From contig CP000068.1 of the NCBI GenBank assembly GCA_000002445.1, positions 192,001-256,000 of the forward strand: DNA of 64,000 nucleotides, written 5' to 3'. This document shows, in pieces, positions 36,001-42,000 of the stretch (within the stretch, counting starts at the first letter, position 1; the number at the start of each line of letters is the position of its first letter). The DNA comes from Trypanosoma brucei. Lineage: Eukaryota. Position numbers: made by a program.

Positions 36001-39000
36001 TTTCGCCCTGCAGTGGCGGTATGTCCCTTTCTCTTTGCTTTTCTTGTCTTGTATTAATTCTCCGGTGCTCTTACAGCACATTTATGCCGTCCCTTGCCGT
36101 GGACACATGTATATGACAGGTATTTTTTTTTCTTGTCCCCACTTTTTCTAATTTCATATGCTTGTTTTGTACGCGCGGTCGTGGTGGGCGCGAATTCCCA
36201 CACCGCACTTGTCTCGGTTTAAATGTTGATTATAACTTCGTAACGTTTGGCGCGCTACTCGTAAGGGTTTTGTGCTTCCCTTTCTGTTTGATGTCGTTTC
36301 TTACCTAACTCTTATGACATACCTTGAGTGTATGATGGATATCCGTGGTTGTTGCTAACTTTTGCTCTTTATGTATTTTATGTATTTTATGTATTTCTAT
36401 TTTTTAATTTTTAATATTAAGGTTCTGTGTGCATTACTCTGATATCACTCCACCATTTTCGACAGCGAGCATCTGGCGGCTTGGACTACTTTTGTTGTTG
36501 TTGTTGGTGTCATCTTTTTCTTTTCTTTTTTTCCGTTTTCATTACATCTCTTCTTCTAGGCTATTTGAAGGGAATACACATCTGCAGGACTGGCTATATG
36601 TTATTGCTTAGGGCGTACGGGGCATAGGATAGTTTAGGATCTAATTTTTTTTTTTTTGCCGTAGCCTTTTAAACTGACGGCGATTTTTTTGAACCATATG
36701 ACAAACTTCCGTGTTTTGTTAGGGAGTGTTTGGTGACCTGACCGATTTGCATTTGGTGTTGAGCCGCTGCACTGCTGTGAACTTTCCGCATGTGACGGCG
36801 CCTCATGTTCAGAGATCGCGTAGCTGCAATAGTAATAATAACGATTATTATTTAATAATAAATAATAATAAGCGCTGCCATCTGATGTTGTGGAGTTGTG
36901 CTACGAACCGTCACGAGGCTGTTAATACAGTTGAGGTCATTAATGACTTTATACGGTGCCTTGTTTTCCCGCATATATCCGTGTGTGAGTGGTGAATTCT
37001 CTGAGGTGGTTATGAGGTAAATTCCAACACCCCCCCATCCCCCCCCCCCAAAAAAAAAGAAGAGACGAAACCAAAATGGAACCTGGACAACGCGGTGTGT
37101 GTGTGTGTTTGTGTTTGTGTTTGTGTTTGGATTCGATATCGGCGCGTGTGCCTGGAGATCATTTACGCTCTTGCCAAGTTATAGTAATTTTTTTTCGTTC
37201 CTTCATGTTTAATAAAGGTGTAAAAAGTTTGTTAATTTGTGAACAGTGCACGGTGGAGAGTGTATGATTTTGTTGTGTAAGGGCGCGGTGATATGTTGCA
37301 TGTTTTTTTTTTCTGTAGGCCTTTTTTTCAGGTGATGTGACCCACGGTAACGTTTGGTTTAAATTCCGTGCTTAACGTGCGTGTGCCAGCGACTATGAAC
37401 TTTGCCAGCTGCAAAAAAAAAAGGAAAAATGTGCAGCCCATGGAGCGGGTTCGCTTTTTCGTGTTGTGATGATGGTGGCATACGACATTCACAATTAGTA
37501 GTGGTGCTGCTGGCGCCTGTTGTATTGTCTAATTTTTGCGTACTCATAATTTCAAATACTTAATGAGTAAAAAGGACTTTGTTATTTTATGGGGGAGGGA
37601 GCTAATGTCATACGGGATGCTAATTTGAGGGGTTTATGTTATTTGATATCTCACCTTGAAAGGTTTATCACTATTTTGTGGTTTGCTTATTTTTCCAGGG
37701 GCTGCTGAGTTCCATTAGTCGGGTGCCTCAGTTTTTAATACATATCAAAATAATAAAAATAGGCATCCAATATATCAGGATGCGGTACAGTGTGGAAATA
37801 TATGATGTGGTACTTATGTAGGGTGAATTGTTCCGACGGTAAAGGACGGCAAAGCAATTCCTTTTTTGGACTTACACACAACCATTGGTTTGTTTTTGTT
37901 AGATTTTTAAACTCGCTAAAATTTGCGTTTGTGGTGATTGCGCTTCCTTATGTGGGATTTGTATTTGCGTTTTGTGCGCGTGTTTGGAATAGGAGTGCTT
38001 CCTTGTATACATATTTTTCTGAAAAGAAGACAAGTGACATCATTGTGAACAAAAAGACATATACGAAAATGTTGGGGATGAGGAGTTACATCGTATTTGT
38101 TGCTGTGGTAACGCTGCAACATATCTGCGTCAATTCAAAGGCGCATGAAAACAACATTGTGAATGGAAAGGAATTTGAAGCACTGTGTGGCTTTATAAAT
38201 TTTGCACTGGATACACAAACACCACAGGATTTGGTGCTCAAAGTTGAGGAAGCAGAAGACAAAATCTTGAGTGACACGTTTGCAGCTGGGGGGGATGCGA
38301 AGGTTTCAAAGGAACTACAAGAGCTTAAACAAAAAGTGGAAACTTATAAGGAACAACACAGTGATTTATGGAGCAGCTCCACGCCAACTATTATCCAGAA
38401 AAGTTTAACAGAAGCGCTGTATGGCAACGGTAATAAGCAGGTTGTAGTCAAGCACGTGCAAGGCAACAGGTCGGACGTATGTGGCAGAGCTGGCGGACAG
38501 ACGGGAAAGAAAGCAGGTGAGACGTTGGCGCTGGATTTACTGTGCATTTGCGCAGCATCTGATCAAGATGAGGACGACGTTGTGACTTGCTGTAATGGAT
38601 GCAACACCACTCATGTAGGGGTATGGGAGCCCCAACAAAACTCTCCCGCTCACTGGAATTTGCTCCACCCTAAGTGCAGCAACGTGAAGAGAGAGAAAAC
38701 TCGGCCACTTCAAGTGCTCTCAGCAGCGCTTCGTTTTTTTGTCAGCACCCTCAACACAACGTCAAACTCTTCATCAGGTCCCAGAAACTTACTGGGTGCG
38801 CACGACGGGAGCGTAGAGCACGGTTGCAGCGGAGGAATCTTGGACGGACATGGCCGATGCGTAATATATCTCCCAAGACACGTCAGTGGAAGTGCGCCAA
38901 CAATTCCGTGGTATCTAAAGTTGCAAGAAGCCGCAACCAAAATGGAAGAACTAATCCAAGCCGAGGAGTACCTCGTGAAGATTCAAAACCAAGTAAACGA

Positions 39001-42000
39001 ATTGAAGAGGGAGGCACGACCTGTCCCAAATAATTCAAGCGAAAAAGAGAAGGACGAATCCAATAATACTGATGATGGACTGGAGGGGAAAAAACCGACT
39101 ACGTCTTCTAAAAGAGGATGCTCTGGTTTCGAAAGCAAGGTGACTTGCCTGCAACAGAAGCCGCGGTGCGAATGGAATGGGACTGAGTGCGTGACTTCTA
39201 TAAGGAGATTACTCACCTCCAGCGGTGTAAGCCGCCTCCCAGCACCACTTAAGTTATTTTTTCTAGTTTTTTAAATACCCCTTAAATCTTAAAATTACAA
39301 CTTCACATAAACTTAGCATTTCTCCCCCAACCCGACCCAACCTTACCGTAAAGACTCTTTTTCTCTCCAACAACAACTGTTTTATTAAACTCACTTAAGG
39401 AAACACGCATCTTCCAGATTTTTTTCAAAGATTAAGTAACTCAACATATGTAAGGCAGGCATGCTTTTTATGCGCTTTGTGGGTGCGCGGTGTTCGTTCC
39501 GCCTTTCTTTCGTACGTTTCTCCGATTAGTGAAGAAACCAACTCACTTTCCCCCTTTGCTGTGTTTCCAACAACTCTCTATCGCTGCGATGTTAATCCTA
39601 CAGAGCAAATGGTGATGGTGGTGTGCGCGGGGCCACTCGCTCTTGGTTTCTTGGAACAACCTTGTTTTTCACTCTCGGCAAGGAAGAAACACTTTCCCAT
39701 GCCCGCTGTATTTGCTGTTTCCCACCAAGTTATTCTTCGGAGCGCCTTCGTGTTGGAGTTGTGTTCCACTTCCAGAGCTATCGACAAATGCTATTCCCAA
39801 ATCCGCGTATTCAAGGATAAAGGGGATATTTTCTTTGCCGAAAGAACTTTTTCTTGGTGACATGAAGCACCCAGAGAGTACCTTGATATGCGCATTTCGT
39901 GTTTGTAATTGGAGGGGAAAGGGCTTCACTCAATGGGGGAAAAAATTTTCCTCTGCTCATTCTTTGGTTTATTTTGTGATGTCTCTCTGTACAAATGGAA
40001 AAAAAACTTTCTTCCTTTGGTGTACGACACTATCTTTTGTTTGAGAGCAAACATGGAATGTGACATTGTTGCTTTTCACGCTTTTTGTGCGTGTTTCTAC
40101 TAGGCTACGGAAGGAAGCAAATGTGACAATGTTTGTTGCACCGTTATTTGTGTAGGGCGACTGTCCGACGAGGTGGCTGGGAGGAGAGTCGGATTTGTGT
40201 TCAGTGTACCTGTGTATGGGCTCTTACCGCCTTGGCTGCAGTTTGTGGCGAGACGGCTGCGGCTCCCGAAGTCGTTCATGCGGTAATGCTCTCTTAGCGC
40301 TAGTTTATTCCGTGTGTTTGTTGAAAAACCGCCCGCTGTGCCAAACTCACGGGGGGAGGCTGTTTGTTTGTAGATTTAATCTATCCGCTCGTCCGTTGGA
40401 TATCTGCGGAATTAACCCTAGTTTTCTTTAAGTTCACGTCTCAAAAGCGCTCAGCTCTTTTGCGCCGTCATTTTGCCCACTTAAGGTATTAAGACCGTTG
40501 TCGCCATACATACCCGGATCCGCGGTATCACCTGATTTGGTTGCAGTTTTTGATATCGCGGCTTCGGTTGGTGCAGGTTCTCGCTTCTTGCCGTCTGGAT
40601 TTTCGTGCGTTTTGTGGGAGAAAGATACTGCACTTACATGTTTAACTCTCAGTCTTTAGGTCGAATGGTTTGAGTGTAAAGCGTGGCAACCACCCGTAAA
40701 ATAGCAATCTTCTTTTCGAGGCATTTTCTACCGCGGATTCTTCACGTAGTGATTTTAGGGATGAGGCATTACAGTGGGTGCGGGGAAGATTCTTCGGCTT
40801 CTACCCTTAGATTACTGCCCCACTTTTCTATTTTGTGTCCGTCCTTGTGCTGCATATGTCTGGTGATGGCACCTTATTCCACGCGTTCCGTTGGGCAATG
40901 TTGGGTGTTGAAGAATCCTCGGAGTCAGGTACCTTATTGGAAATGTTATGTCATTCATATCTGTTTTTATTGTATCCTCCTGGTGCGTAGGATGATTCCC
41001 GGAATATGAACGCACAGCTCATCGCGCCATCCAGTTTTGTGCTGCATATTCTCTGTCCTTCAGTTGGTCCTTTTCGCACATTCTTCCCTGGTTCCCCAAA
41101 GGGGGGGGGGTTAATGTTTAATGTTTTCGGTTTCTTTCTCTCCATCCTCTTTGTTTTTTTTCTGCGCTCCATTTTCCTGGGTGACTTTTCCTTTGTCTTT
41201 GCCTTGCCCTTCCCTAATTCGATGCTAATGTTCTTCCGGGTTGTGGAGTTGCTTTTTTATGCATCTGCTACCCATTCCAAACAGACTTGGCTGTGGTATA
41301 TCGGACGTTCCTACTTGTGATTTGTGTCGCCAGGTCATATCCTCTTTGCTTTCCGGTGTGTTGCGCTTGCGCCTCGCCAAAGTCCTCTCTATTTTGGGTA
41401 TTTCGGAACATACTTGGTAACTTATTTCGTCCTCTTCATGCAGCAGCCCTTTCGGCATTCTTTGGTTCTTTCTGCTCGGCTTGCGTGGCCTACGTCGGTG
41501 CATTTTCTTAACCATCCAATCAGTCGGTACTCCTGGGGGAGGGGGGGGGGCGTAAAGGAGGAAGTTTGACCATATTTATTATTTTTGACATTCGGGCAGG
41601 CCCCCTGCTCGTTCCCGAAGGGGTGCTCGGGGGGATATCTGAAGCCCGTGGTTGTACGTGTTCCCATAACGATTCCCCTCGTTCGGGAACTCACATCACA
41701 AACATGGCGCCTGTAGTTTCTCTTGTACGCTTCCGGAGCTTCAGTTTTTTTTTTTTGGGAGCGCCTCCTGTGCTCTTTTAAAAAATATTTCCCATCGAAG
41801 CGCCCTTATCGCATGGTTAATAGCCGAGCCGGTGTATGGCAGCTGAACGTTGCGCACTTGGCATCCGGCTGGGTCATTATATCTTACAACTTGTGATGAT
41901 GAGGGCCTCTAAGGGGAATGGCTATACTTCCAAGGGGGTTTCCCGTCATATGCGTTGTTGAAGCCTGTTTAACTATGGACCCGCTGCGCCGTCCATGCTT

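What the first reader, a model, noticed from the sequence alone, without database searches (positions are those of the whole stretch)
37790..39274. Chromosome-internal VSG-related gene next to GRESAG4, with an atypical C-terminus and no VSG 3'UTR signature
The protein has a signal peptide followed by a helical N-terminal domain with paired Cys, resembling A-type VSG N-domains. It has a C-terminal CEWNGTEC motif like VSG C-terminal domains. But it is short (401 aa), its hydrophobic tail is weak (SRLPAPLKLFFLVF), and the conserved VSG 3'UTR 16-mer (TGATATATTTTAACAC) is absent downstream. The ORF is also open about 280 nt upstream of the signal-peptide ATG, with no protein-like character there. 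This fits the poorly understood VSG-related (VR) class that is pol II-transcribed from core loci. Their function is unknown, which makes them interesting.
Basis: partly seen in the sequence, partly recalled or inferred. Interest (0 to 1): 0.6.

Follow-up and report, generated by a model that had tools for sequence, protein, structure and literature searches.

The report
Known short VSG-related gene Tb927.5.660
This is an already catalogued Trypanosoma brucei gene (Tb927.5.660) for a shortened, non-variant relative of the parasite's coat protein, ordinary for its class, though what that class does is still unknown.

Summary
The ORF is real. Read from the ATG at 37802, it is an exact match to Tb927.5.660 of T. 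b. brucei TREU927 chromosome 5. GenBank calls it a "hypothetical protein". The Lister 427 and EATRO1125 VSG catalogues list it as VSG-746 and VSG 1125.4321.

Apart from one 73-75% identical paralogue (Tb927.3.2500), the four nearest relatives score 144-182 bits. Three of them are annotated "VSG-related, putative" and the fourth "VSG, putative". Canonical VSGs score 94 bits or less.

The "atypical" C-terminus is the norm for this tier. It has one 4-Cys VSG C-domain unit and a 17-residue tail that lines up with the canonical 17-residue VSG GPI signal.

The helical hairpin is about 60 residues shorter than in 103 aligned B-type relatives. There are no 70-bp repeats, no 3'UTR 16-mer and no telomere repeats.

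The 267-nt upstream extension in the GenBank model is probably 5'UTR.

My best reading is an invariant, low-abundance, GPI-anchored surface protein transcribed by Pol II, not a donor for antigenic variation. Its ligand or function is untested. Already known; low interest.

The parts
37790..38068 (+). Open frame upstream of the signal-peptide ATG. The GenBank model of Tb927.5.660 starts at the ATG at 37802 (490 aa). Most likely 5'UTR, not coding.
   Evidence: ORF limits come, and the 490-aa reading is an exact match to XP_844740.1. These 89 codons differ from Lister 427 at 4 positions (4.5%), against 3 of 401 (0.75%) downstream; Fisher p=0.023. The extension is not conserved in the paralogue, where only 34 unrelated codons precede MRSY. 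No Pfam hit. The EATRO1125 and T. equiperdum models use the short form, 401 and 400 aa.
38069..39274 (+). Coding sequence of the 401-aa VSG-related protein plus the TAA stop. The start conserved in the paralogue is Met4 at 38078.
   Evidence: Pfam VSG_B E=3.3e-46.
38069..38137 (+). Predicted signal peptide, residues 1-23 (MLGMRSYIVFVAVVTLQHICVNS). Cleavage after VNS is inferred from the -3/-1 rule.
   Evidence: Hydropathy peak at residues 4-21. It aligns with the N-terminal hydrophobic leaders of 19 VSG-family proteins. No signal-peptide predictor was available.
38138..39028 (+). B-type VSG N-terminal domain, residues 24-320, with 10 Cys and 4 N-glycosylation sequons.
38165..38422 (+). Shortened helical hairpin, residues 33-118 (helices 33-72 and 77-118). 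About 60 residues are missing compared with typical B-type VSG-family proteins.
   Evidence: The spacing between invariant C40 and C138 is 97 residues, against a median of 157 in 103 aligned relatives. The C138-C264 spacing is 125, equal to the median. The gap is visible in alignment A2 at columns ~105-175. Helix limits come from the AF2 model.
39029..39118 (+). Predicted disordered, polar linker, residues 321-350, rich in S/N/E/K and carrying 3 sequons.
   Evidence: pLDDT is below 50 for residues 321-349. Sequons are listed.
39119..39196 (+). Single 4-Cys VSG C-terminal-domain unit (CSGFESKVTCLQQKPRCEWNGTEC; C-x8-C-x6-C-x6-C).
   Evidence: It aligns with the first C-domain unit of canonical B-type VSGs, for example CEAIKKAKLCKEKKPLCEWKG. 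The regex C-x7-9-C-x4-7-C-x-W-x1-2-G is found in 35 of 149 relatives and in the target. Pfam PF10659 on the last 94 aa alone gives E=0.0079 and 17 bits, below the 21.4-bit cut-off. pLDDT is about 74-77, with a short helix and two strands.
39218..39271 (+). Putative GPI attachment site (omega Ser384) followed by a 17-residue signal, SGVSRLPAPLKLFFLVF.
   Evidence: It lines up residue for residue with canonical 17-residue VSG signals (S|NSFVIKKAPLLLAVLLF, S|SSLVIKTSPLLLAFLLF): same length, Pro at +9, and an 8-residue hydrophobic end finishing in F. Annotated VR proteins share similar short tails. Two VR proteins had PredGPI specificity of 0.93-0.999 in Gadelha 2015. No GPI predictor was run on the target.
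39275..39460 (+). Start of the 3' flank (putative 3'UTR). It lacks the VSG 16-mer.
   Evidence: Sequence read. The 16-mer search with up to 3 mismatches found nothing downstream.

Best explanation
The feature is Tb927.5.660 of T. brucei brucei TREU927 chromosome 5. It is a solitary member of the VSG-related (VR) tier of the B-type VSG family.

Shown here:
- It encodes a 401-aa (or 398-aa) precursor. The parts, in order, are a hydrophobic leader, a B-type VSG N-domain with all family-invariant cysteines, a disordered linker, one 4-Cys VSG C-domain unit, and a 17-residue C-terminal tail that lines up with the canonical VSG GPI signal.
- The helical hairpin is about 60 residues shorter than usual.
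- The protein is 99% identical in five strains or subspecies.
- It has one 73-75% identical paralogue, Tb927.3.2500.
- The locus has no 70-bp repeats, no VSG 3'UTR 16-mer and no telomere repeats. It lies in a same-strand gene run downstream of a divergent strand switch.

Inferred:
- RNA polymerase II transcribes the gene as part of the polycistron.
- The mRNA is trans-spliced inside the open upstream frame, so translation starts at 38069 or 38078.
- The product enters the ER, is N-glycosylated and is GPI-anchored at Ser384.
- It sits at low copy number on the surface, flagellar pocket or endosomal membrane as an invariant protein. It would be shorter than the surrounding VSG (helices of about 40 residues, roughly 60 A) and so shielded by the coat.
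- Without the 70-bp and 16-mer elements it is not a practical donor for antigenic variation and would not reach VSG-level mRNA.
- Its molecular job is most likely binding a host or vector ligand, or modulating the coat, as in other VSG-derived proteins. This last step is speculation.
For: Identity:
- The 490-aa reading is an exact match to XP_844740.1, Tb927.5.660.
- Orthologues differ at 3-5 residues, apart from a local patch in T. equiperdum.

Family:
- Pfam VSG_B at 158.6 bits.
- PDB sequence hits to VSG1954, VSG615 and VSG11.

VR tier:
- HMMER over 1.84 billion representatives gives the paralogue at 671 bits, then 182, 162, 146 and 144 bits, then 94 or less.
- Three of those four proteins are annotated 'VSG-related, putative' and the fourth 'VSG, putative'.
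- Average-linkage clustering joins exactly these six sequences.

Short hairpin.

Tail: shared with the VR tier and collinear with the canonical signal.

Selection: all 14 mature Cys are conserved in a paralogue that differs at 27% of positions. Chance expectation is 0.73^14, about 1%.

Locus:
- The only tandem array in the window is the centromeric one, and there is no telomere repeat.
- The 16-mer is absent.
- There is no other VSG-like sequence in the window.
- All ORFs of 200 aa or more from 26970 onward are on the + strand, while the ISG genes at 11-18 kb are on the - strand.

Literature:
- VR genes are chromosome-internal, lie near strand-switch regions and lack 70-bp repeats (PMC2771046).
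- VR proteins are enriched in the bloodstream-form surface proteome (PMC4587319).
- The paralogue gives a low microarray signal, about 4.9-fold higher in bloodstream than procyclic forms.
Against: - No expression, localisation or GPI data exist for this gene in anything I could read.
- Its identifiers occur in no searchable paper text.
- It is absent from the held supplements of the bloodstream surface proteome, where other VRs were found. So it may be very scarce, made at another life-cycle stage, or not translated.
- The hydrophobic end of the tail is interrupted by a Lys and is weaker than canonical (2.51 against about 3.4).
- The C-domain match is below Pfam's cut-off.
- The TREU927 GenBank record does not label the gene VR.
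- The splice-acceptor site was not mapped.
- The structural model is of medium confidence (pLDDT 75), built from only 20 sequences.
Confidence: 0.72

Rival explanations
1. It is a silent but usable canonical VSG, a member of the archive as its catalogue name 'VSG-746' implies, which can be copied into an expression site and form a coat.
For: - It is listed in the Lister 427 and EATRO1125 VSG catalogues.
- It has the VSG_B domain, a C-domain unit and a 17-residue tail of canonical length.
Against: - There are no 70-bp repeats and no 16-mer.
- The locus is core and near the centromere, in a same-strand gene run.
- The protein is 99% conserved across five strains or subspecies.
- The N-domain hairpin is about 60 residues shorter than the family median, so it could not pack level with a normal coat.
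- Its nearest relatives are annotated VRs, not VSGs.
Confidence: 0.04
2. It is a decaying relic. The ORF is intact by chance or by recent origin, it is transcribed passively within the polycistron, and it makes no functional protein.
For: - It is not detected in the held surface-proteome supplements.
- The paralogue's mRNA signal is low.
- No paper mentions the gene.
- The tail is weaker than canonical.
Against: - The ORF is intact in TREU927, Lister 427, EATRO1125, T. b. gambiense and T. equiperdum.
- The paralogue keeps an intact ORF at 73% identity with all 14 mature Cys and the family-invariant residues.
- The model folds confidently over the N-domain core.
Confidence: 0.12
3. The protein is made but not GPI-anchored. 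It is secreted, or held at the membrane only by pairing with an anchored partner, as ESAG7 is held by ESAG6 (PMC3605285).
For: - The uninterrupted hydrophobic stretch is only 6 residues (LFFLVF), after a Lys.
- No GPI predictor was run.
- A close paralogue exists that could be a partner.
Against: - Both paralogues have the same tail, so there is no anchored/unanchored pair.
- The tail matches the canonical 17-residue signal in length and Pro position.
- VR proteins had PredGPI specificity of 0.93-0.999 in Gadelha 2015, and a chromosome-5 VR and other annotated VRs carry similar short tails.
Confidence: 0.1
4. The 490-aa GenBank model is right, and the upstream 89 residues form a real N-terminal extension, for example a membrane anchor.
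For: - The frame is open from 37790, and the ATG at 37802 is conserved in TREU927, Lister 427 and T. b. gambiense.
- The extension is Phe/Val-rich and hydrophobic.
Against: - Amino-acid substitutions are about 6 times denser there than in the rest of the protein.
- The extension is absent or unrelated in the paralogue.
- It would bury an otherwise typical signal peptide.
- No family hit.
- Two independent annotations use the short start.
Confidence: 0.04

Closest known systems
T. brucei VSG-related (VR) proteins as annotated in TREU927, in particular XP_829333.1 (chr 11, 420 aa; VSG-1373 in Lister 427), XP_951521.1 (chr 2, 444 aa) and XP_844158.1 (chr 3, 490 aa)
   Same: - They are the best non-paralogue hits, at 144-182 bits and 33-35% identity.
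- They share the B-type N-domain, a single 4-Cys C-domain unit, a basic motif (RR/KR) followed by a short ...P-L-x-L-F-L-L tail, and a core-chromosome location.
- XP_829333.1 shares the shortened hairpin, with C40-C138 spacing of 92 against 97.
   Different: - Identity is only about 30-35%.
- The target is labelled 'hypothetical protein' in GenBank, not VR.
- The chr 2 and chr 3 VRs have a full-length hairpin (spacing about 147).
- Another VR group (about 340 aa) is shorter still, with spacing of about 55.
Canonical class-B VSGs with solved structures (mVSG1954 8b3w, VSG3 6elc, VSG11 8ok4/8ok5, VSG615 8ok8)
   Same: - The invariant cysteines and the LYGxG, DLxCxC and GxCVxY motifs are conserved.
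- The first C-domain unit is homologous.
   Different: - Identity is 15-22%.
- The helical hairpin is about 60 residues shorter.
- There is one C-domain unit, where many VSGs have two.
- The GPI-signal sequence has diverged.
- There are no 70-bp repeats and no 16-mer, the locus is core, and the protein does not vary between strains.
[quoted passage not shown]
   Same: [quoted passage not shown]
   Different: Fam1 lacks the VSG C-terminal domain, which the target keeps as one unit. I made no direct sequence comparison.
ESAG2 (a B-type VSG-derived expression-site gene family)
   Same: It belongs to the same superfamily according to PMC3605285. An ESAG2 gene (Tb927.3.2510) lies next to the target's paralogue.
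   Different: No ESAG2 appears among the ten named top clusters, and there is no ESAG2-like or other VSG-like sequence elsewhere in this window. I made no direct comparison.
SRA and TgsGP (truncated VSG derivatives that confer human-serum resistance; from my own knowledge, not checked here)
   Same: The concept is the same: a VSG-fold protein shortened by internal or terminal deletion, invariant, low in abundance, and given a non-coat function.
   Different: As I recall, SRA derives from an A-type VSG and sits in an expression site, and TgsGP is specific to T. b. gambiense. The target is B-type, core-located and present in all T. brucei subspecies sampled.

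Membership tests
B-type VSG N-terminal domain superfamily (Pfam PF13206 VSG_B) | Profile match above the curated cut-off | tested here: met
   158.6 bits against a cut-off of 25; E=3.3e-46.
B-type VSG N-terminal domain superfamily (Pfam PF13206 VSG_B) | Conserved cysteine framework and signature motifs | tested here: met
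   There are 10 Cys in the mature N-domain. C40, C138, C159, C161, C203, C253 and C264 are invariant across 20 family members, along with W281 and the GxCVxY motif.
B-type VSG N-terminal domain superfamily (Pfam PF13206 VSG_B) | Class-B VSG three-dimensional fold | tested here: met
   [not shown]
   [not shown]
Canonical (archive or expressed) VSG gene | 70-bp repeats upstream | tested here: not met
   The only tandem array in the 64 kb is the 148-bp array at 5977-7814. Nothing beyond two micro-repeats lies in 35000-46500.
Canonical (archive or expressed) VSG gene | Conserved 3'UTR 16-mer TGATATATTTTAACAC | tested here: not met
   No match downstream, even with 3 mismatches.
Canonical (archive or expressed) VSG gene | Subtelomeric or telomeric location | tested here: not met
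   - No TTAGGG repeats.
- Centromeric CIR147 repeats lie 30 kb away.
- Housekeeping-type genes lie downstream.
- The gene number (Tb927.5.660) suggests the core of chromosome 5.
Canonical (archive or expressed) VSG gene | Full-length N-domain | tested here: not met
   C40-C138 spacing is 97 against a median of 157 in 103 relatives.
Canonical (archive or expressed) VSG gene | VSG C-terminal domain (Pfam PF10659) | tested here: inconclusive
   17 bits (E=0.0079) on the isolated last 94 aa, below the 21.4-bit cut-off. The 4-Cys unit does align with canonical units.
Canonical (archive or expressed) VSG gene | Canonical 17- or 23-residue GPI signal | tested here: inconclusive
   The length (17) and the Pro position match the 17-residue class, but the sequence has diverged and is less hydrophobic.
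VSG-related (VR) class of T. brucei (as described in PMC2771046, PMC3605285 and PMC2854126) | Closest sequence relatives are recognised VR genes, distinct from the bulk of VSGs | tested here: met
   The top tier scores 144-182 bits and contains three TREU927 'VSG-related, putative' proteins and one 'VSG, putative'. Canonical VSGs score 94 bits or less. Clustering groups the target, its paralogue and these four.
VSG-related (VR) class of T. brucei (as described in PMC2771046, PMC3605285 and PMC2854126) | Chromosome-internal, near a strand-switch region, without 70-bp repeats | tested here: met
   The divergent strand switch lies between 18.4 and 27 kb, and the gene is 11-20 kb into the + strand unit. 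There are no 70-bp repeats. The definition is quoted.
VSG-related (VR) class of T. brucei (as described in PMC2771046, PMC3605285 and PMC2854126) | Listed as VR in the original VSGdb/TREU927 curation | tested here: not met
   GenBank calls Tb927.5.660 a 'hypothetical protein'. T. b. gambiense calls its copy a 'T. brucei spp.-specific protein'. The paralogue is classed 'Unknown: Tb-specific' in Jensen 2009. This is a curation label, not a biological feature. The Marcello & Barry 2007 list could not be read.
VSG-related (VR) class of T. brucei (as described in PMC2771046, PMC3605285 and PMC2854126) | Pol II transcription and expression outside an expression site | not testable with these tools
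   The only evidence is context. No expression data for this gene were found.
GPI-anchored surface protein | N-terminal signal peptide, plus a C-terminal omega site, spacer and hydrophobic end with no cytoplasmic tail | tested here: inconclusive
   Heuristic only. The leader spans 1-23. The proposed omega site is Ser384, followed by Ser and Gly, then a 7-residue spacer ending in Pro and an 8-residue hydrophobic end. No SignalP, PredGPI or NetGPI was available.
ESAG2 | Closer to ESAG2 than to VR or VSG | not tested
   No ESAG2 sequence was identified for direct comparison, and none is among the ten named top clusters.

The most novel reading that the evidence does not exclude
Tb927.5.660, its paralogue Tb927.3.2500 and the chr 11 VR (XP_829333.1) may form a distinct mid-length class of B-type VSG-fold proteins. 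Their helical bundle is about 60 residues (roughly 45 A) shorter, so they would sit beneath the VSG coat as invariant receptors. Between the two paralogues the stalk, C-domain and anchor are 84-96% identical, while the central N-domain is only 40-76% identical. That pattern could reflect diversifying selection for two different host or vector ligands, with gene conversion keeping the ends alike.
Probability: 0.15. Interest if true: 0.55.

Novelty: already known. Interest (0 to 1): 0.2.

Why it matters
VSG-derived invariant proteins have repeatedly turned out to be receptors or resistance factors. The transferrin receptor is one example (PMC3605285); SRA and TgsGP are others (from my own knowledge). 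VR proteins are enriched at the bloodstream-form surface (PMC4587319), yet no function is known for the class.

This gene adds nothing new in kind. What this check does deliver:
- A cleaner gene model: the start is at 38069 or 38078, not 37802.
- The correct domain type: B, not A.
- A placement in the VR tier.
- The observation that it belongs to a shortened-hairpin subgroup.

These points could help anyone choosing VR candidates for tagging or ligand screens.

Tried and rejected
- The word-indexed protein search returned only the orthologue cluster and the paralogue, even at E<=10. The exhaustive HMMER search was needed.
- The look-up of encoding contigs had no record for the 401-aa form, the 490-aa form, or either paralogue sequence tried. 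So I had no paralogue DNA, and could not compute dN/dS or compare the 5' and 3' flanks.
- Full-text searches for Tb927.5.660, Tb927.3.2500, VSG-746 and related identifiers found no paper.
- Supplements of Gadelha 2015, Jackson 2013 and Nilsson 2010 do not hold the target's identifier. Jensen 2009 holds only the paralogue, and its main table is cut in storage.
- Marcello & Barry 2007 and Jackson 2012, the primary VR descriptions, are not held.
- The afdb50 fold library was unavailable.
- Rejected: an A-type N-domain.
- Rejected: a second VSG or ESAG2-like remnant in the 6.7-kb ORF-poor stretch downstream. tblastn with 176 family proteins found nothing outside the gene.
- Not supported: retroelement identity for ORFs at 1-6000 and at 43483-43992, which gave no Pfam hit.
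- Rfam and tRNA scans of the window found nothing.
- I could not place the trans-splice acceptor. The only strict polypyrimidine run of 8 or more bases is at 37858-37867.

Full report
**What is there.** An ORF runs 37790..39274 on the + strand: 494 codons from a GTG, with the first ATG at 37802. An in-frame ATG at 38069 opens a 401-aa protein. It begins with a hydrophobic leader (MLGMRSYIVFVAVVTLQHICVNS), carries 15 Cys and 8 N-glycosylation sequons, and ends in ...CEWNGTECVTSIRRLLTSSGVSRLPAPLKLFFLVF. The 16-mer TGATATATTTTAACAC is absent. The only match with up to 3 mismatches is at chance level and on the other strand.

**Identity.** The 490-aa reading from 37802 is an exact match to XP_844740.1, "hypothetical protein Tb927.5.660", of T. 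brucei brucei TREU927. The same 90% cluster holds:
- Lister 427 "VSG 746";
- EATRO1125 "VSG 1125.4321" (401 aa);
- a T. b. gambiense "T. brucei spp.-specific protein";
- a T. equiperdum "Trypanosomal VSG domain containing protein" (400 aa).

These differ from the window at only 3-5 residues of 401, apart from a 13-residue patch in T. equiperdum. One paralogue exists, Tb927.3.2500 (also VSG 1125.4916). It is 73% identical for the TREU927 copy and 74-75% for the EATRO1125 copy.

**Surroundings.**
- Three ISG65-family genes lie on the minus strand at 11429-18380.
- A trans-sialidase lies at 26970-29420.
- A receptor-type adenylate cyclase (GRESAG4 type) lies at 31645-35490.
- The target follows, then 6.7 kb without a long ORF.
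- A Tel2-like gene and an F-box gene come next, all on the + strand.

So the gene sits 11-20 kb into a + strand gene run that begins at a divergent strand switch. The window has no telomere repeats. Its only tandem array is at 5977-7814. No other VSG-like sequence is present.

**Position within the family.** An exhaustive HMMER search of 1.84 billion representatives found 162 relatives. After the paralogue (671 bits) comes a separate tier at 182, 162, 146 and 144 bits. Everything else scores 94 bits or less. Three of the four tier members are annotated "VSG-related, putative" in TREU927 (chromosomes 11, 2 and 3). The fourth is "VSG, putative" on chromosome 9. The next clusters are ordinary VSGs. 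Average-linkage clustering on a 129-sequence alignment joins exactly the target, its paralogue and these four. The literature defines VR genes as chromosome-internal, usually near strand-switch regions, lacking 70-bp repeats and structurally distinct from bulk VSGs (PMC2771046; PMC2854126; PMC3605285). The locus fits that definition. The only unmet criterion is the curation label, since GenBank calls the gene hypothetical.

**Anatomy.**

(a) The spacing between the invariant Cys40 and Cys138 is 97 residues, against a median of 157 in 103 aligned relatives. The next segment, Cys138-Cys264, is exactly the median at 125.
- About 60 residues are therefore missing from the helical hairpin alone. 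The model shows helices 33-72, 77-118 and 280-316, each about 40 residues.
- Only VR-type proteins are this short or shorter. The chr 11 VR has a spacing of 92. A roughly 340-aa group that includes two annotated VRs has about 55.

(b) After a disordered polar linker (residues 321-349, pLDDT below 50) comes a single 4-Cys unit, C-x8-C-x6-C-x6-C.
- It aligns with the first C-domain unit of canonical VSGs, for example CEAIKKAKLCKEKKPLCEWKG.
- Pfam's C-domain model scores it just under threshold, at 17 against 21.4 bits.

(c) The last 17 residues, SGVSRLPAPLKLFFLVF, preceded by Ser384, line up with canonical 17-residue VSG GPI signals such as S|NSFVIKKAPLLLAVLLF. They share the length, a Pro at +9 and an 8-residue hydrophobic end finishing in Phe.
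- The tail is less hydrophobic, at 2.51 against about 3.4.
- Similar short tails end the annotated VRs.
- Two VRs had high PredGPI specificity and were found at the bloodstream-form surface in Gadelha 2015.
- So the "atypical C-terminus" is the norm for this tier.

**Gene model.** The 89 codons upstream of the signal peptide carry 4 amino-acid differences from Lister 427 (4.5%), against 3 in 401 (0.75%) downstream; Fisher p=0.023. They have no counterpart in the paralogue, whose conserved start is the MRSY methionine. They match no family. Two independent annotations use the short form. I conclude the GenBank start is 267 nt too far upstream. I could not map the trans-splice site.

**How it most likely works.**

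Shown:
- a complete B-type VSG-fold precursor;
- conservation across five strains or subspecies;
- a paralogue that keeps all 14 mature Cys despite 27% divergence (chance about 1%), which argues for selection on the fold.

Inferred:
- Pol II transcribes the gene within the polycistron.
- The protein enters the ER, is glycosylated and is GPI-anchored at Ser384.
- It resides at low abundance on the surface, flagellar pocket or endosomal membrane as an invariant protein, shorter than and shielded by the VSG coat.
- Without 70-bp repeats and the 16-mer, it is not a practical substrate for antigenic variation.

Speculative: a ligand-binding role, by analogy with other VSG-derived proteins.

Against an abundant bloodstream-form surface role: the gene's identifiers are absent from the held surface-proteome supplements, where other VRs appear. 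The paralogue's microarray signal is low, though 4.9-fold higher in bloodstream forms.

**Rivals.**

| Rival | Confidence |
|---|---|
| Usable archive VSG | 0.04 |
| Decaying relic | 0.12 |
| Made but not GPI-anchored | 0.10 |
| The 490-aa model is real | 0.04 |

The evidence for each is given in the rival entries.

**Verdict.** The gene is already catalogued and is ordinary for its class. Interest is low. The residual open question is the unknown function of VR proteins in general.

Noticed in passing
window 5977-7814: A 148-bp tandem array with 12.4 copies at 99% identity in an AT-rich stretch (GC 0.37). Each unit contains TTGACGTGAAAATAC (13 exact copies). PMC12975129 gives that sequence as the target within the consensus CIR147 centromeric repeat, found on chromosomes 4, 5 and 8. 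So the window appears to include the (probably collapsed) chromosome 5 centromere array, about 30 kb from the VR gene.
   Followed up: yes
window 37802-38068: The GenBank CDS of Tb927.5.660 (490 aa) probably starts 267 nt too far upstream. Amino-acid differences are about 6 times denser in the extension than in the rest of the protein. The paralogue lacks the extension, and other strains' models use the short start.
   Followed up: yes
window 38069-39271 compared with Tb927.3.2500: Conservation between the two paralogues is mosaic. Residues 1-50 are about 90% identical, 51-275 only 40-76%, and 276-401 are 84-96%. This could reflect gene conversion at the ends or faster evolution of the exposed N-domain. 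I had no paralogue DNA to test it.
   Followed up: partly
window 11429-18380, minus strand: Three tandem ISG65-family genes (428, 421 and 401 aa; Pfam ISG65-75, E from 1e-88 to 1e-100). They share a 260-bp stretch at 99% identity at their 5' ends (18325-18584 and 12660-12919). They are transcribed away from the unit that holds the VR gene.
   Followed up: partly
window 1-6000: An ORF-poor stretch with strong A over T bias on the + strand (AT skew about +0.2) and stop-riddled reading frames. One frame holds an FRPGRPT-like motif reminiscent of non-LTR reverse transcriptases. It may be a degenerate retroelement next to the centromeric array, but Pfam gave no hit.
   Followed up: partly
window 39275-45968: 6.7 kb downstream of the VR gene have no ORF of 170 aa or more and no VSG-like remnant. 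The longest ORF (43483-43992, minus strand, 169 aa) has no Pfam match. This is unusually long for an intergenic or UTR stretch in a T. brucei polycistron.
   Followed up: partly
window 60453-60917 and 61582-62046: A 465-bp direct duplicate at 100% identity, overlapping two ORFs (60255-61055 and 61453-62166) with no Pfam family. It looks like a recent tandem gene duplication.
   Followed up: no
T. equiperdum orthologue P0004, residues 210-222 of the target: A 13-residue patch differs completely and has one deletion, while the rest of the protein is about 99% identical. This looks like a compensated frameshift or an assembly error in that genome.
   Followed up: no
window 38888-38890, 39074-39076 and 39230-39232 (residues 274, 336 and 388): TREU927 has Gly274, Asp336 and Ser388. 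Lister 427, EATRO1125, T. b. gambiense and T. equiperdum all have Glu, Asn and Asn at these positions, so the three changes are private to TREU927.
   Followed up: no
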